Below, piece after piece: positions 10,871-47,376 of a stretch of DNA of 64,000 nt (position 1 is its first letter; each line of letters begins with the position of its first letter). The translations under genes and the position numbers were made by a program. The DNA lies in NCBI RefSeq assembly GCF_026210795.1, contig NC_089429.1, positions 6,138,001 through 6,202,000 of the forward strand. Reading direction: 5' to 3'. The DNA comes from Rhizophagus irregularis. Lineage: Eukaryota. The notes below the pieces were generated by a model. That model made no database searches. It was not told the DNA's origin and worked only from the letters and a program-made list of their open reading frames with translations.

Positions 10871-10902
10871 GCATGGCTTCGGCTCATGCAGAGCTTTACT
10901 AG
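10871..10902 (+). mobile_element. Helitron-like 3' terminus (hairpin then CTAG|T)
   Basis: gcatggcttcggctcatgc stem-loop, 9 nt, CTAG at 10899-10902 followed by T; partial copy at 45519-45541. Confidence 0.55.
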
Positions 10903-20900: not shown

Positions 20901-21139
20901 AAGTATTGATTTTCTGGACTTTAATATAATAATTGTATATATACCTTGTAAGAGCAATATGCTATTCCCAAGGTTTACAGGTAGCATTGGATTTTTACAT
21001 ACCCTGATAGACCACAAAAGTATAAGTTTATTAGTTGACTTTATTATTTTAATTAACCTATATTTTATTCTCTATCATACTATGGCTGAAGATACAGTTG
21101 AAGTTTTCACAGAAGATTAAAAGTTTATCATTTTTAAAT

Positions 21140-24100: not shown

Positions 24101-26745
24101 TAAGTAAATATCAAAAAGTTTCATTTAATTATAATATAATAGTCAATTCTTAGACAATTTGGTACTATTATCATTAAATAACCCTAATTTATAAATACAT
24201 TAAATTCAATTATATTTTATTACCAGCCATATATTGTTGCAGTTGGGATAGTAACAAATTTAATCTGGAATATCTTATACAGTATCAAAAAAAGTCTTTA
24301 AAAAAATTTTATAGATGCGCCAAATCAAAAATATAGTAAGAGAAAATTATCAAATATTATGGATTTTCAAATTTTCAACTAAGTCTTCAAAATTCATACC
24401 CTGTTGAAGTTGGATTAGTTTTAGTTGAGAGAGTAGTTACAAACACTTTATTTAAATATTCTAATATATATTTTTTTAAGGCATATGTTATATATTGAAC
24501 CTCTAGGAAAATTGGAAATAATTTTACATCTTTTCTAAGATAAAGAAGCATTATTAAATATAAAAAACACGTTGTACAAACTGCCATAATTTTAATTGGA
24601 AGTGCACCCCAAAATTTCCAATAAAACATGGTCCCCATAAAAATTCAGTCAGCATACGAAAAAAAAGGGATACTTGATTCCTTCCTAACAGAGCCAAGTA
24701 TTGCAGGATGATAATTATACATTAGTATCATCTAACAAAGATTCTTAGTGAAGCTATTATTCAAAATAGACAGTTATAACATGATGCAAAATAATTAAAA
24801 TAATTTTAAGTCTAGCAAAAAATGTAGTGAAGCTTTTAAACTTTATACAACTACATTAGTCATTTCAAATTGGCAAATATATCCATCCGAGTTGAAGGAA
24901 TTTTGCAAGTATGATGTGATAAAAATACAACTCAGGAGTATTTTGGCAAATTCATAAGTAATGCAAGTGTATGGAAGACTGCTGTTTTTACAATATTAAA
25001 TTTATTTTTATTTTGTTATGAATTTATTTTTCATATCAAATGTGATTTAATTTCTTAAATCTTGGTAGAAAAAAAGATTTTTTTTCATTTTAAAAACAAA
25101 AAAGTATAAAAAGAATAGGGTTTGGATTAGTTTTAGTTGAGGGAGTTAGTTACAAATATTTGATTTTAAATATTTTAGTATAAACTTTTTTAAAAAATCA
25201 AAAAATATAATTTATATTTATATAATCAAAGGCGACCGACCATAAAGCAAAACTATAAAATGGATACTTCACAAAAAGAACCTGAACACAAGCTGAAAGC
25301 AGAGGTGAAGAGGAGAGGGCAGTAGAAGAAAATATTTTAGTATATATTTTTTTAAGAATATATATCAAACCTCTCACATATTTTCTAAGACAAAGAGGCA
25401 TTATTAAAATTTGCGCACATTGCCATAATTGTAATTAGAAGTACACCTCAGAATTGCCAACAAAACATGGTCCCTGTAAAAATTCAGTCAGCATATGGAA
25501 AAAAAGGATACTTAATTCCTTCTTAACAGAGTCAAGTACTATTGAAGGATGATAATTATACACTAGTATTATCAAACAAAGATTTTTAGTGAATAATCTG
25601 ATATTTTTATTGACATAATTAATATTAAAGCTATTATTCAAATAGACAGTTTTAGCATGATATAAAATAATTAAAAATAATTTTAAGTCCAGCAAAAAAT
25701 GTAGTGAAAGCTTTTGAACTTTATACAGCTACATTAGTCATTTCATTTCAAATTGGCAAATAGTACTGTATATCCATACAAGTTGAAGGAATTTTGCAAG
25801 TATAATGTTGTGATAAAAATACAACTTAGTATTTTGGCAAATTCATAAATAATGTAGCCGTATGAAAGACTGCTGTTTTTTACAAAATATAATTTATTTT
25901 ATTTTGTTATGAATTTATTTCTTATATCAAATGTGATTTCATTTCTTAAATCTTGGTAGAAAAGAAAATTTGCATTTTAAAAACAAAAAAGTATAAATAG
26001 GATAGGTTTTGGATTTAGTTTTAGTTGAGGGAGTTAGTTACAAATATTTGATTTTAAATATTTTAATATATAAACTTTTTATATTTTAGTATATATTTTT
26101 TTAAGGATATATACATATATCAAACCTCTAGGAAAATTGTAAATAATTTCACATATTTTTAAGACAAAAAGGCATTATTAAAATAAAAAGCGCTTTGCAC
26201 ATATTGCCATAATTGTAATTAGGAGTACACTTCAGAATTGCCAACAAAACATGGTCCCTGTAAAAATTCAGTCAGTGTATGGAAAAAAAAAGGATGCTTA
26301 ATTCCTTCTTAACAGAGTCAAGTATTGAAGGATGATAGTAATTATACCATTAGTATTATCTAACAAAGATTCTTAGTGAATAATCTGATATTTTTATCAA
26401 TGTAGTTAATATTAAAGTTATGATTCAAATAGTCAGTTTTAGCATGATATAAAATAATTAAAAATGATTTTAAATCCAGCAAAAAATGTAATGAAAGCTT
26501 TTGAACTTCATACAACTACATTAGTCATTTCATTTCAAATTGGCAAAATATATCCATCCAAGTTGAAGGAATTTTGCGAGTATTATGTTATGATAAAAAT
26601 AATTGGCAAATTCATAAATAATGTAGGTGTATGAAAGATTGCTACAAAATTTATTTTGTTATGAATTTTTTTCTTACTTTATCAAATGTGATTTCATTTC
26701 TTAAATCTTGATAGAAAAAAAAAAATATTTTTTCATTTTAAAAAT
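21140..26745. repeat. Hierarchical tandem duplication: two ~1.9-kb units, each starting with two ~240-bp subunits, followed by ~0.8-0.9-kb partial copies
   Basis: Recurring blocks such as gatcatgctcatcccgat (~21238, 21490, 23117, 23370) and gttgaaggaattttgc (~22992, 24891, 25782, 26562). Confidence 0.85.
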
Positions 26746-27279
26746 GAAAGGGAAATGTTAAATAATATCTTGGAAAAAACAAGGAAAAAATAATATTAGA
26801 AGCGGTACTGATTAAACAAGAAGATAGATCCTATAAAAAATTTTTCAGAGAAATGATCATGTGTCTGAGTTTCTTTGAAATAAAAACTAGAAAAATGATT
26901 ATTTATCAGAGTTTTTTCCAGATTTTTTTTATAGGGAGAATATACATACTGCCCAGATATTGACATTAATGAAGATATATATAACCCTTTAATTAAAGAA
27001 ACTGAAATGGAAGAATTGGACGAAGCAATAACTTTAACAAATAATGGGAAAGCAGCAGGAAATAGTAAAATAACATATGAATTTGGAAAAAAAGTAAACC
27101 ATTAACAAGAATGCTACTACTAAGTTAATGAATCAATATTTGATAGAAGAAGAATCAATAGATGCCTGGAAGAAAGGTCTAACACTAATATATCCAATAT
27201 CAAAACCAACAGATTGAAATAAGGATTTAAATAACTTTACAGAAACCTTCAATTTTCATAAATATGATAAACATATAAT

Positions 27280-27665: not shown

Positions 27666-29129
27666 TTTTAATATTCTTTGCAGAAAACTCTAGTTTTCGT
27701 AAAATATGTTAGACATAAAAAATGATGAGAATTAATGATATTGGTGAATATTTTTGTAATATGAACAAAACAATTTTACAATATTTTCAAAATATGTTAA
27801 AGATGAACTTGAACTAACAAATATTTTCGTAATATGAATACAATATTTTGAAATGCATTAAAATATGATTGATATTAGCGAAACAGTTATTACAATATTT
27901 TGAAATATATTAAATATAAAATATAAACTTAAATTAATGATATTAGTGAATTCTAAGAATGAATAAAATATAGCTACTATTTCGATTCCCTATATCAAAA
28001 TTCATAAAATCTTTGAAATATAATTAACACATGAATAAAATATAGCTACAATATCAATTACATATGGCAAAATTCATATAATCTCTGTAATATAATTTAA
28101 CATATCTTTCTCCTATTTTAACCTGATTAACCACGCACTTTAAGATGATGAATTACTTCTCCTTAATTTGGTTCATTAAGGAGGTTCCTAACATAATGTT
28201 AGTGTTTCATTCACTTATCCGCTGGTGGTCAGACTAAAATATTCCTTACTAACTTTTCATTCTTTCTTACTTTTTACACCAATAATAATATAAAAAATTT
28301 TTAATACTGAAAAAAATATCGGCAAAAGCCCTATATTTATATTAATTTAGAATCACGTGTATCATGTGATTAACCTGATTAAAGCAATACTAATAATAAA
28401 TCCGCAGTTTGGTCTTTTTTTTTTAAACTTTTTTTAACTCTTTTTTTTAACAAAGTTTATTTTATTTTATTTTATTATTTAAACTTTTAACTATTCTTTT
28501 AATTTTTTCTAACACTTTATCAATGTTATAATATATTTCAACACCATATGGTCACCACTTTGTTATTTTTTACTCTCTATTTCCTATTTTCCTTCTTTCA
28601 ATCATTCCCTCCTCTCTCTCATACATAGTTTTAAAAAAAAAGTGAAAAGTACCCACAAGAGAAAATCAAAAATTCTTTAACATTTTACATTTTGATTTTA
28701 GCTTCCATATTGAATTTCATTCATTTGAAATTCACTTTGGTACAATAAATAGTAGGAGGTTGTTTAGTATTAGGCGTAAGTATATTTTGTTGTGTAAAAA
28801 ATGATAAGGAAAAGGAGATAATAGCAGTTTCTTCACAGATTCATATTTTTCAAATCTCCAAATATATAATTAATGCAGAGTATCAACAGAAATGATTGGA
28901 AGATATTCCAATAGTAGCATAACATATTGTTAAATACCCTTCAAATGCTGAAACTGGAAGCTTTTTTTAGGTAATTCTTTCAGCTCCTCCAGTAGAATTT
29001 GTCAATTTTGTTTTCTTTAATTGTTTTGTTTTTTATCAAATAATTTTTAATGGTTGTTTTCTTAATTCTTAGATGGCTTAGTTCTACGGTATTTAGAATG
29101 TGAGTACAGTAGGAAGTTTTTTTTTAATT

Positions 29130-30020
29130 ATTTATCTTATAGCAACGAAACATTTCTTAGATAATGGGATCTTCAGATATGTTGATTTTTGGTAAGAGTA
29201 TTCGGAAGTTTTTAAAAGTTTCAAAACATTTTACTAATGTTACAATTTACTCTCTTTTTTAGCAAGTTTTTAAATCTTTGTGCGCGTTGGAATTGAGTGG
29301 GTATTTCTTTTTTTAGAATTTCTATTTTAACAAATATTTATTAATGTTTTGATTTTTTTCTTTTGTAGCTCTTATTATGGCATGTCTGGCCTCTTTGGAT
29401 GCTGTCTCTTTAGATGTGGACTTTTGGTAACTTTTTTATCTTTTTTTTTTCACTTTTGACGAAATGAAACATTTATCAACATCCTTTCATTTTTCTTTCT
29501 TTTGTAGTTGCAGATTTTTAGGGTGTGATTTTATTATTTGTTTATTTTATATTTTTTAATAAACTTTTGCTAAATGTTCATTTGTTTCTTCTTTTTAGGC
29601 AACTGAACTGGCTGAATTTCTTTGGATGTGCAGGACCTCTTTGACGAACTGTCATTTGTAACATTTTGATTTTTTCTTTTTTAGCAGCTCTTTAGTTTCT
29701 TAGCTCAGGATTTTGGTTAGTCTCAAAATTTTTTATTAAATTTTTTTTATTTTTAGCGAACTTTACTAACAGTTTATTTATTTCTTTTTTTTAAACAGTT
29801 GTGCATACACTTAATTTATTGTAAGAATCTTCAGAATTTTTTTTAAAAAATTTTCTTTATTGAGCATTTTATTAAAATTTCAATTTTATTTATTTCATTT
29901 TTAGGCAATGGAACCTTGGATTTGTAGATTTTGGTAAGTATTGGAAGTTCCTTTGGTTTTATTTCTTTAACGAATTTCTTACTAATGTTTTGACTTTACT
30001 TTTTTTTTAAATGATCAAGC
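29130..30020 (+). other. Array of short GT-AG introns and micro-exons with no ORF
   Basis: Repeated GTAAG/GTATT/GTAAC ... TACTAA(T/C) ... pyrimidine tract-TAG units, e.g. ~29192-29262, 29302-29368, 29427-29507. Confidence 0.65.
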
Positions 30021-33000
30021 ATCTTGTATTGTATAAATAGAAATAAAATTACTTATTGAAAATTTACACGTCCACAAACAAGCAAATATACTAATAAAAA
30101 TAACCTACAGTGTATTGCAAAATATCATACAAGAAATCTAGACTAATTACTACTACTATTTATTATCCTACCCACAACTTACAGTATTTAACAGTCTGAA
30201 GAAAATCGCAGAAGAATAAGTGTGACCTCCAAATGAGATGGAAAGGAAGTGACCAGGAGAGTTGCAAAAGGGAGATAAGATGTGAAAATGGCGAACATAC
30301 AAAAAAGTACAGTAATAATTTTGTTTCCTTATCATTGAGAGGGTCGTACAGAAAGGAGAATCAGAAGTCACATGATTTGACTTGGAAATTTCCTTGCAAA
30401 TAAATCACAATGATCCAAATCAAGAATGTAACAAAAATTGTGCAGTGAAGGCATTATAATAGTTTTGTTTTTATTATAATTTCAATGTAAAATGTATAAT
30501 TGTAATATTTTAGTGTATTTTTAATATATAATAAATTGTATTACTTGCAATATATTATAATGATATTTTTGATATATAATAAAAATATAAATATCACATT
30601 TTTTTCATAAATTTTGACATATTTTTGATATATAGTAAACATATTTTAAACATATTTTAATCATGTGTTTTTTAACATATGTTCAACATATTGCCGTTAT
30701 CGAGTTACAACAGAGTTAACAGAAATGTATACGCAATATGTCAATCATATTTTAAAAATATTTTTACCATATTTTCAAAATCAATAGGTTTCTGCAAAGA
30801 AAATAAAACACGTCCAATAACATTAATTGAAACAGCTTAAAATTAATGTCAAAAATATTAACAAAACAGTTGAGTAATATTATAAGTTAATTTAATGTAT
30901 TAAAAGGGAATAATTTCACAGCATTAAAAAATAATAGTACATACAAATCAATAAAACTAAGTTATACAATCATTAATTAAAGATGGAAGTAGAAAAAAAA
31001 AAGAATTATGGATTATTTTAATGGACATAAGTAAAGCTTTTGATTCAGTTAATTCAATAATGTTAGAAAAATGTCTTAAAAGAATAAAAATACCAAAAAG
31101 GTTTATAAATATAGTAATAGATGTTGCATATAATAGATCCAATTGAGTAATAGTAGGAAAAGATCCATCAGATGAATATTATGTGCAAGATGATTGACCA
31201 AGGGAAAGTGTGGTCACCGATTTTACGGAAAATTTTTATGATCTATTATTAATTTATTTAGACAAAATTAAAGAACAAGATATGAACTTGAATGTGAATG
31301 AAATACAAATATTGAAGATGTAGCAGTAAAAACACAAATTAACGTATAATTGACAGCTTATATGGACGATACTACAATAATAGGAAAAAATAAAGAAAAG
31401 GTCTTAGAAATGATTGATATTTGTCACAAGATCTTTAGCTTTGATAACGTTCATTTTAATGTCAATAAGCACGGAGTAATAAAAATAAATAGTAAAGAAA
31501 AAGAATTAATTATTAATGAAGATAAAATAAGAAAAATAAATAATAGTGAAGAAGGGAATAGTTATTTAGGTTTTTTTTTATATGGAACAATAAAAGGAAA
31601 ATATATTAAAAAAGAATTAAAGATATTATTGATAAAGCAGTCAAAAATAATCAGATGGAAAAACATAACTGAAAAACAGGTAATAGCAATTTGAAATATA
31701 GTAGTCATACTGTATTATTTTAATGAAATAGGAATGTAAACAGTTAATGATTCCAATAAATAAGTTATGTAAAAATTAAGGTAAGGTAATACCAATGAAA
31801 AAAATAACAAAACTACCAATAATAACGCGGAAGTAAACGAACAAGTTTTAAAAGCTCTAAAAATTGCGGCCGTAGCGATTAAAGACGGTATAATTAGCTA
31901 TAACTACTCCAAATTATATAATATATGATAATAATATTATAGGACTTAAAAATATATACGGTGTATAATTAGAAAATATTAGTAAAAATATTTTATATTA
32001 CATCAATGATAAAAAGAACTTGGAGAGTTATTCAAATTCCATATGAAAGAAATGCAAAATGAATTATAGACTGCTTATTGTAACAAAAATTCAATAAATA
32101 CAAATGTGACGCATTAATGTTGTTGAAAAGATCTTAAAATTTGTGATTATGAGATTATGAATCTCATACAATTAATACAATTAAAGGGGTTGCATTAAAA
32201 TAGAAGATATATTAAATGAAGAACAATATATATTGTTCTTAAATAATGTTTAGAAAATAATAATACAACATTAATGAAATGGAAGCACATATGTAAGGAA
32301 GGTAATATCATAACAATAAAAGGCAAGCTACCAAATGGTATAAAATAATTAAAGGTCTCCATTTAAATAAATATTATTTGGAAAAATTAAAATTAAATAA
32401 CAAAGAATTATTAATTAATAGAACGCATAATTATGTAGAAAATATAGGTAAATTAATAAAGAAAAATTTATTAACATGGAATGATGAAAACAAATTAGTA
32501 TTTGGAATATATAAAAAGAAATCACAAAGTAAAATCATGAATATATTGGAATGCATTTAATTCATAAAGAAGATGAAAATGATGAAGATTCACTGAATTT
32601 AATAAAATGTAAAGATTATGAAAAAAATATTAAATATAATGGATAAAATAATTACAGATGTTGAACAAGAAAATGATATATAAATAGTAAGATAGTTATA
32701 ATTAATAAATATTGCAAAATGAATAATGAAACAAACAAGCGGATAATAAGTGAAATGGAGAAATTAATTGAAATGAATGAAATGGAAATATTGAGTTTCA
32801 TCAAGAAATACCAGAAGGTCAAAATAATAATAATTTGTTGTCTTGGACAATTATATTATTAGATCAAAATAATGCTGAAAAAGTAGAGTTAATGAGTATT
32901 ATAATAATATTGATACTAGTTAAAGACCATAGTAGAATAACTTTATGATTAGATAAAAATACATAACAATATTATTAATTTTAATCTAGAAAAAAGTGAA

Positions 33001-34561
33001 TGTAAAAGGCTGAACAATATATATATAAATTATATATGAAATATAAATTTATATTTAACTGGATAAAAGAACATTCATTAATATCATTTCATAGATAAAA
33101 ATGAAAGATAAAATATTAGAAAAGATAAAAAAGATAAACAGAACCAATTGATCCTAATAAAAAAGCATCATATTATATGAAATAGAAAATCAATCTTATA
33201 CACTAAGATGGAAAAAATGTCCAATATCAGCAGGTGATTATAGAAACTGGGTGAAAATGTATAATAGGATAAAATACAAAAGTGAAATGTTAGCAAGTGA
33301 ACATTTGATAGATATATTCCAGTTAAATGTATTACAAGAATACGATTGGAACACTACCTTTAATCTCATCAAAAAAGGAATAAGCAATAATATTTGTAAC
33401 TAATGTTTTAGATAATGAATTATGAGCATATAAAATTAAGAAGAATTACCAACATATGAAATTTTATTTAAAAGAGTTAGTAGTGCAATCATAATGAAAG
33501 CATGTATCAGATGCTGTAGTAAAATTGATAATTATAACATGCCTGAAAATTTAGATCATGTATGGAAATGTACAAGGAAAGAATATACAGAAGAAAAAAT
33601 TATGTATAATACATTTACATGAAGCGCTAACTGGTATAATTATAAAGTAGATAACATTAATGAGTTCAACAAAAATATTAATATCTGAGAATACTAATAG
33701 ATATGCATTAAAATATAGAGAATTAGTAACGAGGGGATTATATGATGATCAATAAAATAGGGAAAACTAAGGATGAAAAGGCGATGGTTAAGTAGTATGA
33801 AACATGAATGTTAGGATTATTGCATGGTGCTAAGTAAATAATATATACATTTTTTGCTCAGCAAAGAAAAATACAATTTTAAGAAAAAAATACACATTAT
33901 CTGTTATATTGACAACATTAATAGCAAATATTAAATATTATTAGGGTATATTGTTGTTTAGAAAGTAAATACATAAATAAAACAAAGAAATGTAAATATG
34001 AGTGAGGGTGAAACATAAACATATATGTTAAAAATAGGTTATTTTTTTTATTTTTTTATATATCTGATATGTAATTTATTTATAAATTTCATTAAAATAA
34101 TAAAAATAAATGCGCATTATTAACAAAAAATATAATAAAGGTTTTTTTTCATAAATACTACTAAGGAACTATACAAAATTGACTATAAATCACATATTTA
34201 TTGAAAAATATTAATGAAAGTGCCAAACTTGATTCTTAATTCCACCATAGTTTAATACATGAAATTATGGATTAAGCAAATGATTGCCTCACTAATTCAT
34301 TACACATGATTAAAGTTAATCTTCAAATAGTCGACTTGCATGCACCTGCTTGTAATGTGTAATTTTGTAATCCATGCTGCTAATTAATAAAAAACTTTTT
34401 TTTTTGGTACTTGAATGAATATAACTTTTCCTAACAATATTATATACATATTCAAAATGTCTGAAATGAATGAATTGTTTAACAAGTGTATTGATAAAGT
34501 TATTGCTAAAAAGCATTAAGAATATAAAAATTCAAGAAATTAGTATCAGTGGCTTTGGAAA

Positions 34562-34841
34562 TAGGGATGGAATCGGTTAAAAACGAGTTGACTCGAGTCG
34601 ATTATGGAACTGATCTTAAATTTAAAAGATTCTGGATCTCTTGGGCTTAAACTACTACTTTTAATCATAAAAACTCTTCTGAACTTCAACCCGATTTCTC
34701 AAGAACTGACTCAAATTGAGTCATCTGACGATCACACACCAACTATCATTTGAAGGCCAATCATTTTTCTGATTAATCATCATCACATGCTCTACTTGTT
34801 GATGCACGTAGTTAGAACTGACAAACCGATTTCCATCCCTA
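34562..34841. mobile_element. hAT-like MITE, 8-bp TSD TTTGGAAA
   Basis: TIR tagggatggaatcggtt / aaccgatttccatcccta; tttggaaa at 34554-34561 and 34842-34849. Confidence 0.92.
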
Positions 34842-36786
34842 TTTGGAAAAGTTTATCGTGCAAAATGGAAAATTCGTATCAATATTTTGCATTAAAATCT
34901 CTTCTTAATCTTCAGTTGATGAAAGTACTATCAAGGTGTTCATGATGTGATTATAAAATATGTATTGGTAATTAAATAATTTAGATTCATATTTATTTTA
35001 TGTATAATTTGAATAGATTGAATTTCAACGTGAAGTTACTTTCCATAATAACTTTTATGAAGTTACTAGTTACAACTCACTATTTCAGATCAAGCATATT
35101 ATTATATTACAATCAATTTAAAGTGATAAATTTTTTATTATTTTAGAGAATCAAAATAACAGTGTTAAGAAATATCTTTTAGAGTATACTGATGGTGTTC
35201 TCTTTACAATTATTTGAAAGAAAATTTTGAGAAACTTACATGGGAAGATAAACTTAAACTTGCTTTTCAGTTTGCTGTGCTCATGCTAAGACATAATACA
35301 TTATATTTGGTACTAATTTATTCAATTTATTGTAAAATAATCATTACATCAATTATATTATTTTACCTTAACAATTTTTATTTTATTTTCTTATTATGGC
35401 ATTCTTATAATAATGTATTAGCCAAAATACTATCAAATTGGCCAGATTTTGGATTGTCAAAAAGAATTGAAGCATCAATTAAAAAGAAAAAAGATTAATT
35501 TAGTGTAGTTCCTTATATGGATCCAAAAATAGTTCAGTGATAAATCTTATTCTTTAAATAAGAAGAGTGACGTCTACAGTATAGGTGTACTTTTATGGGA
35601 AATATCAAGTAGTAAACTACCCTTTTATGTGGAAGAGTCATATGATTGTAATTTAGCCTTCCAAACTGTACAAGGTCATAGAAAAAACTGTTATTCCTGA
35701 TATACGTTAAGCTTTATACGTACTGGTGAATTTAATACTTTTTTTATTTATTTATGAAAATTGTATTATAATTGAAATTTTTATTTTCTTTAGAATGCTG
35801 CAGTGGGACAACAACCAAGAAGTTGTTAAAAGATTAAATGCAAAGATTTATCAAAAAAAAAAAAACAAAAATATTGATAAGAAACTGATCAAATAACAAA
35901 TTAATATAGTTTTAAATAGTATTGAAGATTATCACAGAGAGAATTATCTCAAATTATCCAAGAATTTGACAAAATGTATACAAAAGGAATTATGAAATTC
36001 ATGACAATCAAATTATTAGCAAAAATATTTACCAGTAAATGATCTGCCGTAAGTGTAATAGTTACATTGCAGAAATTTTTAAAATCAAAACCATATCATG
36101 ACCAAGTCGAAATTATATCATAGACCTTATAACCAAGGTTTGGTCACAATATGGTCTCACATCGTTACAATAAGTTCAAGTCAATCGTTTGTATAGAGTT
36201 GATGCATATTAAGGAGATCATCACCTGATTTAACTAGGTCGTACAAAAATAGTATCGAGATTAGTTAAATCCATATTAACGTTATATTTAATTTATATTA
36301 AAGTTATATTTAATGTATAGTAATGTTATATTTAATGTATAGTAAAGTTGCATTTAACATATGTAAAAGTTATATTTACTGTATCATAAAATTGTATTCA
36401 ATATATATTAAAGTTGCATTTTCAATGTCGCAAATAAATCGTAAAGTGTTCTATAAACTTTATTTAAGAAATATTAAAGTATTCTATTCTAAATCTAATC
36501 GTACTCAAATCTATTATTATTCTAATCTATAAATAAAATTATTCTAATATAAATTAAAGAAGGTTTGAAATTGTTCGAAACTTAGGATTCCTGTAGAAGC
36601 CGTTTCCCTACTAAATAAATAAATTAATTAAAGTTATTAAAACGATTTTTAAAAGAAAGTTTTTGAAGTTGTTTCAAAAACATACTTCCAGGCTCCAGAG
36701 TTCTGGTAATGAAGTTGGAGCTGGTGTCTACAAAATCGTTAGTTAACGTATCGTACTTAAGAATTCAAGAACAAGCCATCTGAAAC

Positions 36787-39052
36787 CTAAAGAAAGAAAA
36801 TAAATTTACGTTAGTAAAAGAAAATGAAACAAAAAAAAACAATGAAAAAAAAATTAAACACTAACCTTCATTCTGAAACCGAAATCTAAAGAGAAGACAA
36901 TTGCCGATTTCTCTACAAAAAAAAAAAAAAAGTTAAAATAATGTTTTTTTTTAAAGTTTTGAAATTTTTCTTCTCAAAACTTACCTATTGGGATTCCGGT
37001 ACCCAAATCTACCTATATTCGCCTATTGAAATCCCGCACATCCAAAGTTCCCAAAAACCAGCCATCTAAAAAAAGAAAAGAGCAAACATTAGTAACATTT
37101 CATTGAAAAAATAATGCTCGCAAAAATCCACTCACCGAAATCCATGTCCGTTCATGAAATTATTTTATTTTGCCTATTGATCCTCATTGCTAATTGTGTC
37201 TCTCAACAACTTATTCAAATGTTAATATATTAATAATATTGGAGATGAATGATCTAAATAAAAGATTTTCATCTTTTTTTCCTCGTTGAAGACCTATTTA
37301 TGATAAGATACAAGGATATTACAATTGTTATATTGCTTGTTCACTAAAAAGACGTAATAGGCGAAAAGCTGTCTAAACTACAAAATGCAAAACACGAAAT
37401 GTTAGTTAACGTTTCGTTGCACTAAAATGAAAAAATAAAACAATTTTTAAGATTATACCTTCAAAATGAGTACGGCCTTTGAAATGGACCTACAGAAAAA
37501 AAATGAAAACGTTAGCAAAACATTTCATTAAAAAAACCCCCCTGAAAGAAAAAAATTCAAAATTTTACCTTTGAAAATGGTAGTCCACTTCGAAATGAAG
37601 TGAAACGGAGTTTTAAACCTAAAAAATGAAAAACAAAAATGTTAGCAAACGTTTCGTTAAAAACCAAAAGAAAACATTCAAAGATATTATACCTTCAAAG
37701 CTGGACCTACTAAAAAAAAAAACGTTTGCAAAACATTTTGTTAAAATCCAACCCCACCGAATTCTCACGTCCAAAGAGCTGAAGAACTAACATCATCTAA
37801 GAAAAAGAAATAAAAGAGAATTTAATAGTTGTTTAAAAAAAATTAAAAAGACATTGCAAAACTCAGCAAAATACCATGTCAAAAGAGCTGAGGAGCCGCC
37901 TAAAAAAGAAAAGGAAAAGAAAGGGGGAAGTGGAGCAAAGTGGAAGACAAAAGAGAGGGAAAGGAAAGTACGAGGAGGGGAAAGGGGAGGAACGAGAAGA
38001 GAAGGGGAAAAGATGAAAAGGAGGAAAAGGAAGAATGAGAAGGGAAAGGAAAGAACAAGAAGAGGGAAAAGGGAAGAACGAGAAGGAGGGGAGAGGGAAA
38101 GGGAAGAACGAGAAGGGAAAGGAACGAGAAGGGAAAGGTAACTATTCTACGTGTCCAGACTTGTTTAAAAATAAGAAAACTAAGGCAATTTTTTACCGAG
38201 ATCCTATGTTCCAGATCCGTCTAAAAAAAAGAAAAAGTACTGTATCCAGAGAGACCCGAAAAGCCATCTATAAAATGAAAAATGAAAAATTAACAAGCAT
38301 TTCATTGAAAAAAGTAAAAAGAAAAAGAAAAAAAGCACTTACTTTAAATCTGCGTTCAAGTCGTACAAGACCTACAAAAGAAAAAAATGAAAATGTTAGT
38401 AAAATGCTTCGTTAAAAGAAATAAAAAAGTGAAATTCGAAGGTATATACCTTTAAAATAGGAGTCCAGCCTTCTAAATGGGCGTCTTGAGCCTACAAAAG
38501 AATTAAACAAAAACGTTAGTAAGACATTTCGTTAAAAATAAAAAAAAAAATTCAAAGGTGTATACAAAAGACAAAAAAACGAAACCATTAGTAAAATGTT
38601 TCGTTAAAAATAAAAAAAAAGTAAAATTTAATGGTATATTTATACCTTTAAAATAGTGTCTTGGGCCTACAAAAGAAAAAAATGAAACTGTTAGTAAAAA
38701 CATTTCGTTAAAAAAAATAAAAAATTTGTAGGTATATACCTTCAAAATATCATATAACCAAAATCTAAAAACAAAACTTACCAAGTTCCGGAGTTATAGG
38801 AAAGAAGTCGAAGTTCTACAAAAAAGATTTCTTTAGATTATTAATCTCGTATCATGTATCAGGATTGGATAGTCAAATTCTGAGGAGCCCCCTAAAAAAA
38901 ATAAAGGAAAGGAAAAAGGATGAAGGGAAAGGAAAAAGGGGAAAAGATTAAGGGAAAGTAAAGGGACGAAGGGAAGTGAAAGGGAAAAGAAGGACAAAAA
39001 AAGAAAAAAAAGTTTTAAAAAATACTAATTTATATTATAAGCTAATTATTAC
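36787..39052 (-). other. Array of about 13-15 homologous short spliceosomal introns separated by micro-exons, no ORF
   Basis: Minus-strand GT...(T)ACTAAC/GCTAAC...pyrimidine tract-TAG introns at ~36787-36865, 36913-36984, 37066-37135, 37378-37459, 37490-37568, 37619-37692, 38268-38342, 38372-38449, 38667-38739. Confidence 0.75.
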
Positions 39053-39400
39053 CATTATTCGACCAGTAGATCATTACTAATTAGGTCGAATAATTTTAAT
39101 TTTGGCTGAATATAGGCCAAATTATTATATTCATGTTTTTTTTTTATATTTTCGTTAAATTATGTAATTTTTATGTTGTGTTACTTCCTGCTTTTACATA
39201 AAATAAATAAATAAAAATAAATAATAAAAAAAACATTATTTGAAGTTAAATGAAAATATTAAAGTTTTTGTCTGGTTAAAAATTTACTTGGATTTGTGTA
39301 TATTTTATATGAACTCTAATAATTAATAACTTCACTAAATTTAAATTTAATCTGCTACGTCCGCGTGGGTTATCTTTTGGCTAGTGTAATTTATAGCATA

Positions 39401-41151
39401 GGTAAAAATCCATGTTATTGGCTAATTTATTGTCATATGATTCAATTTAATGTGATCAGCAAATATTTTTTTTTTTGATAATTATTAGTAACTGTAAGAG
39501 AACATATTACATGATAAATAAGAAATACACGTTGAAATTTGATGAAAGAAACATCTATCACCAAATCTCTCCATATTAAAAATCTTCATATAGTAAAACA
39601 AAGTATACAAAGGCCTATATGCCAATATGTTCTAACTAAACTAAACTAATCAATAAACTGCCCTAATATTCCAATCAATGAGATCTATCCACTCCATCCA
39701 TGTCATTCCATTGTATTCCTCAAAAATCTTACCTGAACCATATGATAAAACAGCCCGTTTCTTAGAATCAAACGAAAAAACTCCCAAGAAATCCAAGATC
39801 CCTCCACAGATGGATAATGATTTATATATATATATATATATGTTGTGCCTCAGATCGATTCTTGCCTCAGATTGAAGCTCACGCACCTCAGATTGAGATT
39901 GTCATCTGACGCACCTTAATTGCTAATAAAAATGAGCTATAATTAAACATCAAAATTTCCAATTTTAATGTATTTTTAAGTACTAAGTAAACTTATTTAT
40001 CATTATTTTAAGTATACAATCCTATAATTTCAGATTAATTGGAATCATACTTATTAAATTTTTTCATTTGAAAAATGACTTAAAATTTAATGATTTTTCA
40101 GATAAAACACAAATATAAACTTCAATATAAATCGGATTTACATAAAAATTTCAGGAAACATGTAACTCATTATGGTGCACAAGTTTGTTTATGTTACAAA
40201 AAGTGGTTTAATTAATGAGAAAAAAAGTTTACTTATAACAGACTTTATTGAATGATTCAAATGAGGTGCGTCAGGTGACAATCTCAATGTAAGGTGCGTG
40301 AGCTTCAATCTGAGGCAAGAATCGATCTGAGGCACAACATATATATTTCACGTGTTGACTAAAATAAACTCTATCCACATGTGGTATTCTATATTTAGAA
40401 TAAATCTTCAATTTTGGTTTACTGGTTTACTGGCAACTCACCATACAGGACGCGCAAATCCAAAATAATTATCAACGTGATATGCTGCACTTTTCAGCTA
40501 AATTTATGCCGTTGTGATCGGCAAATATATGTAATGTGTTACTTTAAAAAAAGGAAAAAAAGCTTACTATGAAATTGGTAATACACTGCATAATAACAAC
40601 TACTCAAATTTTCGGAGGTTAGAATATTGTTTGTAGTAATTGTGTCTTTTGCATTGACACTAGTTGGTATTCGAAGGCGGGCACTCCATAACCTTCTTCA
40701 ATTCTTCGTTGCGCCATCTGATAAATGGTATTTACGAATGGTAATAGTGTAGTTGACGCTGAGGCGCCTTGAATGCATCAATTTTTGTTTGTCGTTGGGC
40801 GCATTGCTACCCGAAACAACGCTATTTAGAAATTGGTCTTTACAGATAGATTTCTTTTGTGGTGGGTTGTTTCTTTGGATTAGGGGAGTATTAATCATTC
40901 TGATTTGATCACGATAGAATCTCGCCAGTATGCATGAGGGTAGAAAAAGAAGTGATATGTTCGCCACATCGCTAGACATGATGTAAGCGGCAGGGTTCTA
41001 CAAGTTGTTCCACAACGGATATAAAATCCTAAACAAATCACATGGGAGCCTATAAAGTGATAATTTTAATGAATTTATTATCACGTGACAGAAATTATTG
41101 GCTAGCAAGTGTTGATCATCACGTGAAATTGCCGACCAATGGATTTTTACC
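39401..41151. mobile_element. TIR element nested in the 5.5-kb element
   Basis: ggtaaaaatccat / atggatttttacc, flanked by TA on both sides. Confidence 0.65.
39841..40339. mobile_element. Ginger-like MITE, TGT...ACA termini, ~75-bp TIR, inserted in (TA)n
   Basis: tgttgtgcctcagatcgattcttgcctcagattgaagctcacgcacct and its exact reverse complement; TATA on both sides. Confidence 0.85.
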
Positions 41152-43114
41152 TATATTTTATTGACTTTTTTCATTTTATTATAATTTTATACTAATTAAC
41201 TTTTATTTAATAAAAGAGATGACAAAAAACAAAAAAAAATATAAAAAAACAAAAAATACAAAACTCTTAAGAAACTGGTAGATTTGTCATTAAATAATAT
41301 CTAATACATCGAAAAAATATCTTGGATTAATTTTTTCGACTAATTTTTGATGATATTTACTACCTATTCAAGACCATTCTTTTAATACGTTACAACCTCG
41401 AAAAAGCATGCCATCGATAATTTCACGATTATGTTAAGAGACCGTCTGAAACCACATCATCACGTGTTGGATACCAAATTGTTGTAATTTGATGGTGATC
41501 ACTTAACCGCATAGTAACAAATCACGGGTTTCTGCAATGTAATAATATTACAGAATTTATTTTTGAATGCTAAATAAAAGAAATCATTATTCATTAAAGG
41601 AAGAGATACTTGATTATTTTAATAATCAAAATAAAGAAATTTATAATTGGTTATCTTAACAATCAAGATTATAATTCAATTTTTTACTTGGAATTTATAG
41701 TTTTATAGAATCAAAACAATTGGAAATAGTACGATGGTATTTAAACTAGTATTTATTAATATTTTGAATAAAATCATATATTGGCACAATATTTTGTTAG
41801 CTATTGTTATAAATATGACTATAGAACTTTATGAAATGATTCATTAACTTTTGGATATTTTAAAAGGGCAGCCAAGAAAAATTTGGCAGTCACACAATGT
41901 GTATAGGTCATCATTATAGCAATGTATTATTTAGTACTCTGAGTAAATTCAAACCTTTCTTTTTACTGGCATAAAAAAGTTGCAAAGAATGGAAATAGAG
42001 AGATATTAATCTTGGCTATTATTATAAAGTTGGAAAGGTGTTAAAAAAGAAAAAGATATAGATAAAGCAATTGGTATAAAAATCTGTAGAACAAGGGAAT
42101 AATAAATATGCTCAAAATTACTTAGAAGAATTAATGAAAACCAAGTAATTTATGTAAATTCATTTGTAATCTATTTATTAATAAATCATTTTTACTATAA
42201 ATATAATGTAAGTGTTTTAAAAGTTCAGGTTTGAGGTGTATTCGAATCCAACTTGTGTGTAAAAGTCATAACTTAGACTCAACTTGATCCAATTATAGCC
42301 TGATTCAGTTTGACCCACCAATTTGTATTTAAATAAAAAAATTTAAATTTTTAGTTAAAAATATAATAAAAATATTCAGGACAGTATTGATTCATCTTGT
42401 GTATAGTAGAGTAAGGAATAATTTAACTATTGTTTGCTTTAGTCAGATTAGCTTTTTTGTAAAGCTAATAAAAATTTTGCTATAAATAGGTGCACGCATC
42501 TACACATACATTATGTGTGTCTCTACTTTGACACTACCATTCTGAAAAAATAACTTCCAACATTGTATCCTTGGAAAAAATACCATACAGGTATATTTTT
42601 CATTATATATGCTGCTAATGTTCTTCACAAAAATTTTGTAGATGACTTTTATCATGATTTTTGAGTTTGTAATAAAAGAACTTATTATATATTAGCTGAT
42701 CAAAAAAATCTAATTTTTTTGGGGTGAAAAATATGATTTAGCATAATATGTTTCCTATTAAAAATAACTAAATAATTTCAAATTCAAAGTTTTTTGTATA
42801 ATTTCTTTATTACTGACATCCCATTAATGATGTATGAATTCAGCTATGTGTTTTCTGATTTGCCAAAAATGAAATTCTAAGTATTTAATAATAATATTTG
42901 TTCTAGTTGAATCATTAAATCAATTTTGCACTTCAAGTTCTTAAATTGCTAATAGCCACAAATTTACAATTAATCAAAAATTCTTAGCATTATATGCAGC
43001 TTATCTGCAATATAATGATATAAAGTATGGCAAGCCGAGCTGGACTAAACTATCAGGCATTGGGCGGGTGAAAAATCAAGCATGGATTGACAAAATGTTA
43101 CACCGTGCCTGACA

Positions 43115-43520
43115 TCTTACCTGTTCATGCTTGATATTCATCTGTCCGTGCTTGATATTTATCTGTACGTGTTTGATATTTTTATCTGTTCATGCTTGAT
43201 GTTTATCTATCACGTGCTTGATATTTTTATCTGTTCATGCTTGATGTTTATCTGTACGTGCTTGATGTTTTATCTGTACGTGCTTGATGTTTTATCTGTA
43301 CCGTGCTTGATGTTTATCTGTACGTGCTTGATATTTATCTGTACGTGCTTGATATTTATCTGTATGTGCTTGATATTTATCTGTACGTGCTTGATGGTTT
43401 TATCTGTACGTGCTTGATAGTTTTATCTGACCATGCTTGACATTTTTATCCGTCCGTGCTTTATGTTTTTATCCATCTGTGCTTGATATTTTTGTCTGTC
43501 TGTGCTTGATGTTTTTGTCC
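43115..43520 (+). repeat. ~20-22-bp subterminal tandem repeats (GTGCTTGATRTTTATCTGTAC)n; mirror array at 46740-47090
   Basis: About 18 units read directly. Confidence 0.9.
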
Positions 43521-44504
43521 AACTGTGTTTGATTTAATCCAACTATGTTCGATAATTTTATCTTTGTCAAAAATTAGTTTCTTTGTCAGCACAGGGTTGA
43601 TATATTGTCGGTCATATGTTTTTAAGTTTAGCATAGTTTTAAAAAAAATTTTTTTTTTTTATTGGCTTTTTTTTATAAACAAATTTTATAGAGAATTTTT
43701 ATTTTTAATATAGGCAAAGGCTTTGTTTGGTAGAATTTCTTTGGGAATTTTTTAATAAGATTTTTTTTGATAAAAAATTTCGTTAGAAAATTTTTTTCAT
43801 TGATAGGGACATTTCTAAGTTTTTTTTTTTTGATGATAATTTCGGAGAATTTTTTTTAATAAGATTTTTTTTTTGACATATACTTAATTTGTTGGAACAA
43901 TTTTTTTTTTTAACAGGAGAGATTTTTTTTTTTTTGATAGAGAATTTTATTAGAGAATTTTTTTTTTTTTGATAGAAATTTCATCATAGAATTTTTTTTT
44001 TAATAGGTAAGATTTTTTTTTTTTTTTTTGATAGGATCATTTCGTTAATAATTTTTTTAACAGGAGATTTTTTTTTTTGATAGAAAATTTTGGTAAAGAA
44101 TTTTTTTTTTAATAGGAAGGAAGTTTTTTTTTTATAGAAATTCTTTTGAGAACATTTTTTAATAGGTAAGAATCTTTGAATTTTTTTTTAATAGGGAAAA
44201 TGTATTTTTTGATGGAAGATTTTCGTTAAAAATTTTTCTTAATCAGGGATATTTTTTTTGATTGAGAATTTCATTAGAGAATTGTTGGTTGAAAAGCCTT
44301 TTTATTTTTTTGATGGAGAATTTTGTTAGAAGTCTCAATAGAAAATTTTATTGAAAATAGTTTTTTTTTAATAAGGGTATCGAGAATTTTGGCTTGAAAT
44401 TTTTTTTTAATAAAGAATTTCATTAGAGATTTTTTTTTTTATAAAAAATTGATTGAAAATTTATTGGAAAATTTTTTATTAAATTTTACAATTTTAATAA
44501 ATTT

Positions 44505-44960
44505 TTACTCCTCTTCATCTTCCCATCACTTCTTTTAATCTTCCATCGCTCCTTTTCGTCTCCCATCACTCCTTTTCGTCTCCCATCACTTCTTTTCATC
44601 TCCCATCACTCCTCTTCGTCTCCTATCACTCCTTTTCGTCTCCCATCACTCTTTTTCGTCTCCAATCGCTCCCTTTCGTCTCCTATCACTTCTCTTAATC
44701 TTCTCATCACTTCTTTTCGTCACTCATCACTCCTCTTAATCTTCTCATCACTTCTTTTCGTCTCCCATCACTCCTCTTCATCACCCATCACACCTCTTTG
44801 TCTCCCATTACTTCTTTTCGTCTCCCATCACTCCTCTTTGTCTTTCATCACTTCTTTTTGTCTCCCATCACTCCTCTTAATCTTCCCATCACTTCTTTTT
44901 TTTTATCTCCCATCACTCCTCTTTGTCACCCATCACTTCTTTTCGTCTTCTATCACTCCT
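44505..44960 (-). repeat. ~20-bp minisatellite, reverse complement of the 12015-12315 array
   Basis: (TCTCCCATCACTCCTCTTCG)n-like units on the plus strand. Confidence 0.9.
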
Positions 44961-47376
44961 TTTCATCTCTCATCATGTCCTATTTCTCCTTTTTGTTCCT
45001 ATCACTTCTCATTACTCTTTTTTACTCCCTTTCATCTTCTATTACTTTCCATTACTCCATTGTTATTTTATTTTTTTTTCCTTGATCATTGTAATTTACT
45101 TATCTTTTTTATTTATTGTTATTGTTTCTTTTATTTGTACATTTCAATAAAAATAAATATGGTGATTTTATTCTTTAAAATCGTAAATAGACTTAAATTT
45201 TAATATTTGTAAATAAAATTTCATTAAATAAGATTATTTTGAATAAATATGTTTGCAAAAAAATTTTTTTAAAAAATATCTTTTTAATAATAACCGATCA
45301 AAAATTAGATACATATTTGAAAAAAAAAACCCAGGCGATGATCGCCCTGGCGATATTTAGCAATCCCAATTTTTATTTATATATATTAAAAGTATTTAAA
45401 ATAGTAGATTTTCAAAAATGTTTTTATGCCAATTAATGATAAAAAGAAGAAACACTGCAAACAAATTTCTGCTATATACTTTTCTTAAAGTTAACATTAT
45501 TAACTTTTTAATTTATGTCGGCTCATGCGGAGCTTTACTAGTATATAAAATTTGCTTAATTTACTATGCTACTTAGGATTCTATCATAGTTTTTTTTAAT
45601 TTTATCTTGATCTTATTAATGTAATTTAGTATTTTTTTTAATTTTATAAAAAAAGATCTCTAATGAAATTTTTTATTTAAAAAAAAAAATTTCAAGCCAA
45701 AATTCTCGATACCCTTATTAAAAAAAAAACTATTTTCAATAAAATTTTCTATTGAGACTTCTAAGAAAATTCTCCATCAAAAAAATAAAAAAACTTTTCA
45801 ACCAACAATTCTCTAATGAAATTCTCAATCAAAAAAAAATTTCCCTGATTAAGAAAAATTTCTAACGAAAATCTTCCATCAAAAAATACATTTCCCTATT
45901 AAAAAAAAAATTCTTTACCGAAATTTTCTATCAAAAAAAAAAATCTCCTGTTAAAAAAATTATTAACGAAATGATCTATCAAAAAAAAAATCTCTCCTGT
46001 TAAAAAATTAAAATTCTATGATGAAATTTCTATCAAAAAAAAAAAAATTCTCTAATAAAATTCTCCGTCAAAAAATACTTTCACTTATTAAAAAAAATTC
46101 CCAAAAGAATTCTTTATCAAGGAAAACTCCCTCCTATTAAAAAAAAATTCTTAACGAAATTCTCTATCAAAAAAAAATCTCACTTGTTAAAAAAATTTTC
46201 TAGTAACGAAATTATCTATCAAAAAAAAAATCTTCCCTATTAAAAAAATTCTTCAAATAATTTTCTGCAAAAAAAAAAAGAAATTCTCAATTAATTCTCT
46301 ATCAAAAAAAAAAAATTTCTCCTGTCACAAAAAATTGTTAAGTATATGTCAAAAAAAAAATCTTATCAAAAAAAATTCTCCAATAAAATTTCTATCAAAT
46401 AAAAATTTTTAACGAAATTATCATCAAAAAAAAAACTCAGAAATGTTCCTATCAATGAAAAAAATTTTCTAACGAAATTTTTTATCAAAAAAATCTTATT
46501 AAAAAAATTCCCAAAGAAATTCTATCAAACTAAGCCTTTGCCTATATTAAAAGTAAAATTCTCTACAAAATTTGTTTATAAAAAAAAGCCAATAAAAAAA
46601 AAAAAATTTTTTAAAACTACGCTAAACTTAAAACATGTGACCAACAATATATCAACCCTGTGCTAACAAAGAAACTAATTTTTGACAAAGATAAAATTAT
46701 CGAGCATAGTTGGATTAAATCAAATACAGTTGGACAAAAACATCAAGCACAGACGGACAAAAATATCAAGCACAGATGGATAAAAACATAAAGCATGGAC
46801 GGATAAAAATGTCAAGCATGGTCGGATAAAACCATCAAGCACGTACAGATAAAACCATCAAGCATGTACAGATAAATATCAAGCACGTACAGATAAACAT
46901 CAAACACGTACAGATAAAACATCAAGCACGTACAGATAAAATATCAAGCATGTACAGATAAACATCAAGCATGAACAGATAAAAATATCAAGCACGTGAT
47001 AGATAAACATCAAGCATGAACAGATAAAAATATCAAGCACATACAGATAAATATCAAGCACGGGACAGATGAAAATCAAGCATAAACAGGTAAAATGTCA
47101 GACACAGAGTGACATTTTGTCTAGCCATGCTTGATATTTTATCGCGCAATGTCTGATAATTTTGTCCAACTCGGCTTGCCATAATAAAGAAATTAGAAAA
47201 CTAAGGCTGATAGTGATTTTACTAATAAATGATGGTTAAAATAAGCTGATTCAATTAATTCATATGATTTTCAATAGTGTAATCTTTATTTTTGTTACCA
47301 ATATTTTTTTAAAAAATTTAGCATTATTTCTTATTGAAATGATAGATGATGGCAAAATAGAATATCTGTAGTTTTA

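What the first reader, a model, noticed from the sequence alone, without database searches (positions are those of the whole stretch)
36787..39052. Tandem micro-exon/intron array with no ORF carried inside a TIR element
Seen: on the minus strand, about 13-15 introns of mostly 70-82 nt, most with a GT donor, a CTAAC-type branch site and pyrimidine tract-TAG. Many share TTAACGAAATGTTTT-ACTAAC. The ~15-60-nt exons resemble each other (many end TTTTGAAG or TTTAAAG), so an exon+intron unit of ~110-125 bp was amplified. By eye, splice signals are better conserved than exon sequence or phase. Inference: a heavily spliced non-coding or leader transcript made by a non-autonomous element. Possible roles are evading silencing of intron-poor transcripts, producing intron-derived RNAs, or combinatorial micro-exon splicing. 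I know of no named system matching this, but cannot search.
Basis: partly seen in the sequence, partly recalled or inferred. Interest (0 to 1): 0.85.

Follow-up and report, generated by a model that had tools for sequence, protein, structure and literature searches.

The report
Transposon making heavily spliced non-coding RNA
A 5.5-kb jumping-DNA element, likely from a root-symbiotic fungus, carries a row of at least eleven short introns that are cut out of its RNA, leaving a transcript of about 1 kb with no conserved protein code, and the splicing itself is likely what the element keeps, because it would make its RNA pass as an ordinary gene's and so escape silencing.

Summary
Observation largely confirmed and extended. 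On the minus strand, 11 strict intron-like units lie in 36600-39052 (shuffles: mean 0.8, max 5). A 931-nt contig of a probable RNA run, with no differing letter, fits the exon model to the base and lacks 11 introns; one junction recurs in three studies, while DNA runs are unspliced. The product (about 1.07 kb) has no ORF beyond chance (60 aa) and no conserved frame. The TIR element is real: 36065-41539, 11-bp TIRs, TA duplication, an empty site in one contig, no transposase. A second copy differs by whole exon-intron units and keeps 8 of 8 donor hexamers (32 of 57 control sites, p=0.02). Corrections: the first intron (39052-38892) and a 48-nt one are unsupported, one more lies at 36611-36685, only about seven introns are demonstrable duplicates, and exons are not less conserved than intron interiors. 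Function is untested; selection for splicing as such is my best reading. Relatives are annotated as hypothetical Rhizophagus irregularis genes. The scan noted similar cassettes in other algal and fungal transposons, mostly without RNA. New variant of a known kind.

The parts
36063..36064 (.). TA target-site duplication, left copy
   Evidence: Empty-site contig in X10 reads the left flank, a single TA, then the right flank (joint 36030 to 41540); window ends printed
36065..36075 (+). Left terminal inverted repeat, 11 bp (CATTGCAGAAA)
   Evidence: an X17 contig from another copy starts to match at 36063 after 93 unlike letters
36065..36255 (.). Left terminal region shared by many related elements
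   Evidence: Summed contig depth about 24,000-27,000 at 36189-36196 against about 230 on unique pieces in X10; loose ends at 36255 in X10 and X12; depth is not a copy number
36243..36418 (.). AT-rich 11/22-bp tandem repeat, subterminal
   Evidence: Family D7
36500..36610 (-). Last exon seen (RNA contig ends at 36500; true 3' end not shown)
   Evidence: X19 record 17, positions 1-111
36611..36685 (-).
   Evidence: Both flanks listed in X19 record 17
36787..36865 (-). Intron, 79 nt, spliced in X19, retained in an X17 contig
   Evidence: Exact length bookkeeping of record 17; X17 record 12
36913..36984 (-). Intron, 72 nt, spliced in X19, retained in an X17 contig
   Evidence: Piece boundary at 36985 in X19 and X20, bookkeeping
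37066..37135 (-). Intron, 70 nt, spliced
   Evidence: Joint 37065/37136, CT..AC, in X17, X19, X20 (three studies), 0 in X15
37378..37458 (-). Intron, 81 nt, spliced; duplicated-unit type
   Evidence: Piece ends at 37377 in record 17; bookkeeping
37490..37568 (-). Intron, 79 nt, spliced; duplicated-unit type
   Evidence: Bookkeeping only: exons of 31 and 50 nt fill the unlisted 79+2 letters
37619..37692 (-). Intron, 74 nt, spliced; duplicated-unit type
   Evidence: Piece starts at 37691 (2-nt ambiguity) in record 17
37710..37757 (-). Degenerate 48-nt intron-like unit, retained
   Evidence: Record 17 runs through 37691-37796 without a gap
37797..37874 (-). Intron, 78 nt, spliced, no consensus branch site
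   Evidence: Piece ends at 37796; 25-nt exon fills the gap
37900..38196 (-). Intron, 297 nt, with a long CT-rich tract that duplicates 38880-39007; spliced in X19, retained in X17 and X20 contigs
38268..38342 (-). Intron, 75 nt, spliced
   Evidence: Piece ends at 38267; a paralogous X17 contig has the same junction around a 27-nt version of the exon
38372..38449 (-). Intron, 78 nt, spliced; duplicated-unit type
   Evidence: Last 68 letters of record 17 = 29-nt exon + 39 nt of the next; X19 depth 6.35 at 38454 equals that record
38492..38645 (-). Fused double intron, 154 nt (an exon lost between two units); splicing consistent with contig lengths but not shown
   Evidence: Sequence; absent with its neighbour from copy L002
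38667..38781 (-). Intron with two donors: 38781 (used in RNA contigs) and 38739 (73-nt unit, not seen used)
   Evidence: X19 record 18 and X20 record 25 stop matching at 38781 and go on for 53 and 111 letters; acceptor inferred
38892..39052 (-). CT-rich tract; predicted first intron unsupported, likely transcription-start region
   Evidence: RNA-like contigs of X19 and X17 end at 38898 and 38937 and have zero depth in 39025-39800; weak hint only
39050..39145 (.). Upstream limit of the cassette shared with other copies; two palindromes
   Evidence: Homology to L002 ends near 39145, X24 loose end at 39152; fold z -3.76; second palindrome not kept in L002
39834..40346 (.). Nested MITE with 89-nt arms, polymorphic
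   Evidence: I3; absent in X12 record 13
40698..40997 (-). 99-aa open frame with no family; no transposase recognised
   Evidence: 0 Pfam families, no atlas hit at 0.9, only hit is the same sequence
41529..41539 (-). Right terminal inverted repeat, 11 bp
   Evidence: summed depth about 5,250 at 41496 in X10
41540..41541 (.). TA target-site duplication, right copy
   Evidence: joint

Best explanation
The array is the transcription unit of a 5,475-bp non-autonomous cut-and-paste transposon with 11-bp inverted ends and a TA duplication, and its RNA loses at least eleven introns to give a product of about 1 kb with no conserved reading frame, the splicing itself likely being the selected feature because it would make the element's RNA look like a normal host message and so lessen RNAi-directed silencing. 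Shown: element ends and empty site, splicing, absence of a conserved ORF, gain or loss of whole exon+intron units between copies. Inferred: start of transcription in the CT-rich tract near 38900-39000, outward direction ending a few hundred bases from the left end, growth by tandem duplication of a ~110-bp unit plus one ~1-kb block, mobilisation by a transposase in trans (CMCT/Plavaka-like or Tc1/mariner), selection on donors. Untested: any effect on silencing or transposition. I put about 0.9 on the anatomy and about 0.45 on the functional step.
For: Spliced contig with 0 other letters matches the model base for base; junction 37065/37136 in 3 of 4 runs laid, the fourth (X15) behaving as DNA; X10 and X12 contigs cross the array unspliced. 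Empty site with single TA, 11-bp TIR occurring once per strand in the window. Paralogous transcript spliced at homologous sites (X17 joint 38267-38448) and RNA-era gene models of a paralogue with isoforms t2 and t3. Copy L002 lacks the units between 38742 and 38453. Donor +1..+6: 0 of 48 columns differ against 9.8% in exons and 12.4% in intron interiors (Fisher p=0.007, binomial 0.004-0.016); 8 of 8 donor hexamers intact against 32 of 57 other GT hexamers (p=0.019); 6 of 7 acceptors aligned intact, the seventh shifted. Exon indels between copies: 7 of 10 not multiples of three; no codon periodicity of substitutions (p=0.63). Known biology: in Cryptococcus poorly spliced transposon transcripts feed siRNA production through SCANR and introns are needed for expression (PMC5851062, passages); R. 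irregularis TEs are mostly CG-methylated and expressed copies less so (PMC8647823, passages).
Against: Conservation rests on one pair of copies. Exons are somewhat better kept than intron interiors (non-CpG 6.6% vs 10.1%, p=0.027; all columns p=0.13), which fits a relic gene or a structured RNA as well. Splicing is incomplete: X17 and X20 contigs retain several introns, which is not what an efficient gene-mimic would want. The empty site is one contig with 25 listed letters on its short side. Other copies diverge from this one at 36255 and 39145-39152, so the cassette is not in every element that shares the ends; only one other contig (joint 36251-36507, side 30, in X10, X12, X15) ties the last exon to the terminal region. 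RNA status of X17, X19 and X20 is the tool's guess. No small-RNA, methylation or transposition data were available.
Confidence: 0.5

Rival explanations
1. Neutral relic: the cassette is the decayed remainder of a multi-exon accessory gene or UTR of an autonomous element (TnpA-like) or of a captured host gene; slippage duplicated some units, and the spliceosome still removes whatever looks like an intron, to no effect.
For: Exons slightly better kept than intron interiors; truncated and fused intron remnants and retained introns; low contig depth (6-35) in the RNA-like runs (a poor measure); En/Spm tnpA has 11 exons and CACTA transcripts splice erratically (PMC2613891, passages).
Against: Donors kept better than control GT sites; no protein family or longer fused form found (the last weak evidence by the tool's own note); two more distant arrays of the same build in this window imply long persistence.
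Confidence: 0.3
2. Self-silencing trigger: the many, partly degenerate introns stall spliceosomes and feed an RNAi pathway, so the cassette damps the element family (for the host's or the element's benefit).
For: Retained introns in X17 and X20 contigs and weak branch sites; SCANR precedent (PMC5851062, passages); about 20% of R. irregularis small-RNA loci are unannotated regions near TEs (PMC8647823, passages); KDZ1 ncRNA linked to small RNAs (PMC11343200, passages).
Against: A fully spliced contig exists; most sites are near consensus; CpG content of the array is not depleted (observed/expected 0.97 against 0.76 for the window) and the CpG excess of substitutions is modest once controlled (CG 38%, GC 27%). 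SCANR is not shown for this lineage.
Confidence: 0.12
3. Micro-exon gene for short variable peptides, diversified by alternative splicing.
For: Gene models of 66-124 aa exist in R. irregularis annotations and share a 31-residue stretch; isoforms t2 and t3 are annotated.
Against: 3 of 12 internal exons are multiples of three; best ORF over 4096 exon-skipping combinations is 67 aa; the models change frame within the shared stretch and have unrelated ends; phmmer over 1.84 billion representatives gives 4 hits, 3 of them these models; no codon periodicity.
Confidence: 0.05
4. Host transcript for intron-derived small RNAs (snoRNA-host or mirtron-like).
For: Many similar short introns with a shared core upstream of the branch site.
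Against: 0 Rfam matches to E=1 in 28000-42000; 6 of 6 introns folded no better than shuffles (z -0.08 to -1.57); short-intron interiors differ at 44 of 306 columns, the highest rate.
Confidence: 0.03

Closest known systems
Non-coding RNAs inside the KDZ1 DNA transposon of Cryptococcus neoformans (PMC11343200, passages read)
   Same: A fungal cut-and-paste element that carries annotated non-coding RNA genes; KDZ1 moves in an RNAi-proficient strain.
   Different: KDZ1 has a transposase, 236-bp TIRs and an 8-bp TSD; one of its ncRNAs is antisense to the transposase. The passages say nothing of an intron array or of amplified exon-intron units.
Spliced TE-derived lncRNAs of Blumeria hordei (PMC10648671, passages read)
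   Same: Spliced, alternatively spliced, intron-retaining non-coding transcripts from fungal transposons.
   Different: Mostly antisense to TE genes, 2.3 exons on average, more than five exons in under 1.9%; here at least 12 exons, no TE gene opposite, units tandemly duplicated.
CMCT clade DNA transposons: Plavaka, ESTA, EnSpm (PMC12730594, passages and one supplement search; PMC11075540 section 10)
   Same: CA..TG termini and a 2-bp TA duplication; Plavaka is prevalent in R. irregularis.
   Different: Ends are CATTG, not CATCA (PlavakaB), TGT (PlavakaA) or CAC with 3-bp TSD (EnSpm); no transposase here to place it.
En/Spm tnpA and soybean Tgmt* multi-exon transcripts (PMC2613891, passages read)
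   Same: A DNA transposon with a many-exon, erratically spliced transcript.
   Different: Those exons encode proteins and are not tandem copies of one unit.
Introners / introner-like elements and Schistosoma micro-exon genes (both recalled; one search gave only a search listing on intron gain)
   Same: Families of similar short introns; runs of tiny exons.
   Different: Here introns multiply together with their exons in tandem, not by dispersed insertion; exons are not symmetric and encode no conserved protein.

Membership tests
Non-autonomous class II (cut-and-paste) transposon | Terminal inverted repeats | tested here: met
   11-bp perfect TIR at 36065 and 41539, once per strand in the window
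Non-autonomous class II (cut-and-paste) transposon | Target-site duplication shown by an empty site | tested here: met
   One X10 contig joins the flanks over a single TA; a second joins 36030 to 41680; 1 of 4 runs laid, table cut
Non-autonomous class II (cut-and-paste) transposon | Dispersed copies with shared ends and different flanks | tested here: met
   High summed depth at both ends, loose ends; X17 record 10 boundary at 36063; L002
Non-autonomous class II (cut-and-paste) transposon | No transposase of its own | tested here: met
   Six-frame translation of 39140-39840 and 40350-41540 shows no long frame; the 99-aa frame has no family
CMCT clade (Plavaka, ESTA, EnSpm) | CA..TG termini and 2-5-bp TSD | tested here: met
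   CATTG..CAATG, TA; definition from PMC12730594
CMCT clade (Plavaka, ESTA, EnSpm) | PlavakaB CATCA..TGATG, PlavakaA TGT..ACA or EnSpm CAC..GTG ends | tested here: not met
   Ends read CATTG
CMCT clade (Plavaka, ESTA, EnSpm) | Transposase with C(2)C and H(3-4)H motifs | not testable with these tools
   No transposase in this copy; no whole genome held, autonomous partner not found
Tc1/mariner | TA target-site duplication | tested here: met
   TA rule for this superfamily from search listing and recall
Tc1/mariner | DDE/D transposase of the family | not testable with these tools
   No transposase in this copy
Spliced long non-coding RNA | Transcript over 200 nt with GT-AG introns removed | tested here: met
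   931-nt contig, 11 introns
Spliced long non-coding RNA | No conserved coding frame | tested here: met
Spliced long non-coding RNA | Cap, poly(A) tail, no ribosome occupancy | not testable with these tools
   Only assembled contigs were served
snoRNA-host or mirtron-type gene | Structured, conserved RNA in the introns | tested here: not met
Micro-exon protein gene (Schistosoma MEG type, recalled) | Symmetric exons in multiples of three within one ORF | tested here: not met
   3 of 12 internal exons; longest ORF 60 aa
Introner / introner-like element (recalled) | Near-identical introns inserted at unrelated exon sites | tested here: not met
   Introns are duplicated in tandem with their flanking exon ends

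The most novel reading that the evidence does not exclude
DNA transposons have evolved a dedicated, protein-free 'splicing cassette': an expandable tandem array of exon-intron units whose only job is to be spliced, licensing the element's arm as gene-like chromatin and shielding it from RNAi and methylation. This copy would be an RNA-verified example with at least eleven introns, in a fungus whose genome is largely unclassified repeats, and similar cassettes noted by this scan in algal, diatom and other fungal transposons would be convergent cases.
Probability: 0.27. Interest if true: 0.85.

Novelty: new variant of a known kind. Interest (0 to 1): 0.6.

Why it matters
If the cassette is kept for its splicing, it is a counter-silencing strategy of transposons that needs no protein, and it makes the question of how introns mark 'self' transcripts in fungi testable with natural copies that differ by whole intron units. 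Even if neutral, it explains a class of short 'hypothetical proteins' in R. irregularis annotations as fragments of a spliced transposon RNA, assigns part of the unclassified repeat fraction (24% of the genome in PMC8647823, passages) to a TA-duplicating DNA element, and shows new working introns arising by tandem duplication.

Tried and rejected
No whole genome was held, so copy number and the autonomous partner could not be determined. A first search for long TIRs found none; the 11-bp TIR was among chance-level hits there and became credible only through the empty site. Collection scans: viral contigs gave 0, 2 and 7 loci, genome contigs 0, metagenome contigs 2; of these 11 loci only L002 is related, the other 10 were dropped as chance matches (L001 is bacterial-type coding DNA). 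No RNA holder is on record as RNA; X21, X24 and X12 gave no usable splicing information, X21 had 0 of 128 laid contigs at 99% or more and showed no empty site. P0002 is an unrelated repeat protein and was left out of alignment A1; P0006 is the window's own frame read with TAG as glutamine. A search for longer fused proteins found none of 661 candidates (weak). CpG decay looked strong (38% against 8%) but shrank against same-ascertainment controls (GC 27%, TG 28%, CA 29%), so I do not claim methylation. The scan's own notes held no look-alike by sequence or place. Ten paper searches found no description of this family; main-text look-ups in PMC11075540, PMC8647823 and PMC11952901 found no 'splic' passages; one supplement each of PMC11075540 and PMC12730594 was searched without a match to these ends. 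The curated R. irregularis TE libraries themselves were not available and may already list the element under an uninformative name. No structure or complex prediction was run, there being no credible protein.

Full report
Setting. The window is about 25% G+C with F-box, tyrosine-kinase-like and reverse-transcriptase fragments and many repeats. No whole genome was held. The nearest named sequences are gene models of Rhizophagus irregularis, one of them 91% identical to a frame of this locus, so the source is likely that fungus or a close relative.

The array is real. A strict scan finds 11 on the minus strand and none on the plus strand; no shuffle of 1000 reaches that, whether dinucleotides or local composition are kept. 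Eight of 12 short introns share a core just upstream of the branch site, but only the group with AAG|GTA(T/A)A donors is clearly above a shuffled control in identity. A larger duplication lies on top: 38880-39007 resembles 37888-38019 and 38369-38557 resembles 37487-37683. The array therefore grew in at least two steps, and not all introns come from one unit.

It is spliced. Of 24 listed runs none is on record as RNA; six are guessed as RNA. I laid four of those. X15 behaves as DNA, with long unspliced pieces. X19 holds a 931-nt contig with no differing letter whose six listed pieces end at predicted splice sites, and whose internal coordinates equal those of my exon model at every step. That accounts for 11 introns: two with both flanks listed (36611-36685, 37066-37135), seven by exact length of the short exons that the table does not list, two by the remaining 68 letters and the cover at 38454. 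The 37066-37135 junction appears in X17, X19 and X20, three studies. DNA runs X10 and X12 cross 36943-37392 and 37380-38405 unspliced. The 48-nt candidate and two short remnants are retained. X17 and X20 also hold contigs that retain introns, so splicing is incomplete or alternative. An X17 contig from a paralogue joins the homologous sites around a 27-nt exon.

It does not code for a conserved protein. The RNA-supported model is 1,072 nt; its longest ATG frame is 60 aa (shuffle median 44, 95th percentile 76) and no exon-skipping combination of 4096 exceeds 67 aa. Three of 12 internal exons are multiples of three. phmmer with a 77-aa gene model over 1.84 billion representatives returns 4 proteins: itself, two isoforms of one R. 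irregularis paralogue and an unrelated repeat. These models shift frame inside their shared stretch and end differently. None has a Pfam family. No Rfam family matches and six introns fold no better than shuffles.

It lies in a DNA transposon. The 13-mer TACATTGCAGAAA occurs at 36063 (+) and 41529-41541 (-). An X10 contig joins a diverged copy of the left flank straight to 41540 over a single TA, which defines an element at 36065-41539 with 11-bp TIRs and a TA duplication, inserted into an older repeat. This is one contig in one of four runs, with 25 listed letters on the short side plus 28 diverged letters that end like the window's flank; a second contig joins the same flanks further out, and an X17 contig from another copy begins to match at 36063. 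Both ends draw far more contig depth than unique stretches (not a copy number). Relatives diverge from this copy at 36255 and near 39150, so the family has shared ends and variable interiors; one contig, seen in X10, X12 and X15, links the terminal region to the last exon. No transposase is present. CA..TG ends with a 2-bp TSD fit the CMCT clade, but not the exact Plavaka or EnSpm ends (PMC12730594, passages); TA also fits Tc1/mariner. The superfamily stays open.

Comparison with a second copy. L002, from a metagenome contig, aligns from about 39145 to 37137 and has a different upstream region. It lacks the stretch 38742-38453, that is whole exon-intron units. Donor positions +1 to +6 differ at 0 of 48 columns, exons at 67 of 681, intron interiors at 90 of 725; 8 of 8 donor hexamers are intact against 32 of 57 other GT hexamers (p=0.019). 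Seven of 10 exon indels are not multiples of three and substitutions show no codon rhythm. A CpG excess largely vanished under a matched control. This is one pair; it suggests, and does not prove, selection on donors.

How it most likely works. Shown: a non-autonomous element is transcribed from within, towards its left end, and the RNA is spliced at many duplicated introns to a product without a conserved frame. Inferred: the element moves by a transposase made elsewhere; units are added and lost by slippage or unequal exchange; what is kept is the ability to splice. The likeliest use is to make the arm's transcript resemble an intron-rich host message and thereby avoid RNAi-linked silencing, by analogy with Cryptococcus, where poorly spliced transposon RNAs feed siRNA production (PMC5851062, passages). 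I give that step about 0.45, a neutral relic of an older multi-exon gene 0.3, a self-silencing trigger 0.12. Retained introns count against the first and for the other two.

Relation to known systems. Non-coding RNAs inside fungal transposons are known: KDZ1 (PMC11343200, passages) and Blumeria TE lncRNAs, of which under 1.9% have more than five exons (PMC10648671, passages). Multi-exon transposon transcripts are known from En/Spm, but they code for proteins (PMC2613891, passages). Ten searches found no account of an amplified, protein-free intron array in a Glomeromycotina transposon; passages of PMC13465315, PMC10234402, PMC11075540 (also section 10), PMC8647823, PMC5751038 and PMC11952901 did not describe one. 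Earlier notes of this scan describe similar cassettes in other genomes; they are unchecked leads and did not set my score. Verdict: new variant of a known kind, anatomy well supported, function open, interest 0.6.

Noticed in passing
   Followed up: partly
window 10338-10649 (-): A third small cluster of two or three intron-like units inside an arm of the large foldback element.
   Followed up: partly
window 39834-40346: MITE with 89-nt arms nested in the element, absent in run X12, so recently mobile.
   Followed up: partly
window 39490-41140 (-): A further spliced-looking unit in the element's interior, read by eye: donors at 40567, 40441 and 39732, promoter-like TCACGTGA and CCAAT words near 41080-41120, a 99-aa frame with no family; nearly single-copy.
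   Followed up: partly
window 35900-36062 and 41540-42200: The flanks belong to one older repeat that the element interrupted; other copies of that repeat supply the empty site.
   Followed up: partly
window 43026-47183 and about 8963-13364: Two related large foldback elements with long inverted arms and internal 20-, 21/23- and about 50-nt tandem repeats, no ORF of known family tested.
   Followed up: no
window 31000-33500 (+): Heavily decayed reverse-transcriptase (LINE-like) remnant; RVT_1 E=5e-4, below the curated cut-off.
   Followed up: partly
window 7059-8588 (-), 59670-61163 (-), 1890-3295 (+), 35193-35610 (+): F-box/leucine-rich-repeat-type ORFs and tyrosine-kinase-like fragments of the expanded families typical of this fungal group (family names for 7059-8588 recalled, no Pfam hit).
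   Followed up: partly
window 170-905: Two tandem 368-bp copies (98% alike) of an internally palindromic element.
   Followed up: no
window 20857-26744: Several tandem duplications of 250-1900 bp at 84-95% identity, apparently of a gene fragment.
   Followed up: no
window 39050-39135: Two adjacent palindromes at the cassette's upstream edge (fold z -3.76); the first is kept in L002, the second is not.
   Followed up: partly
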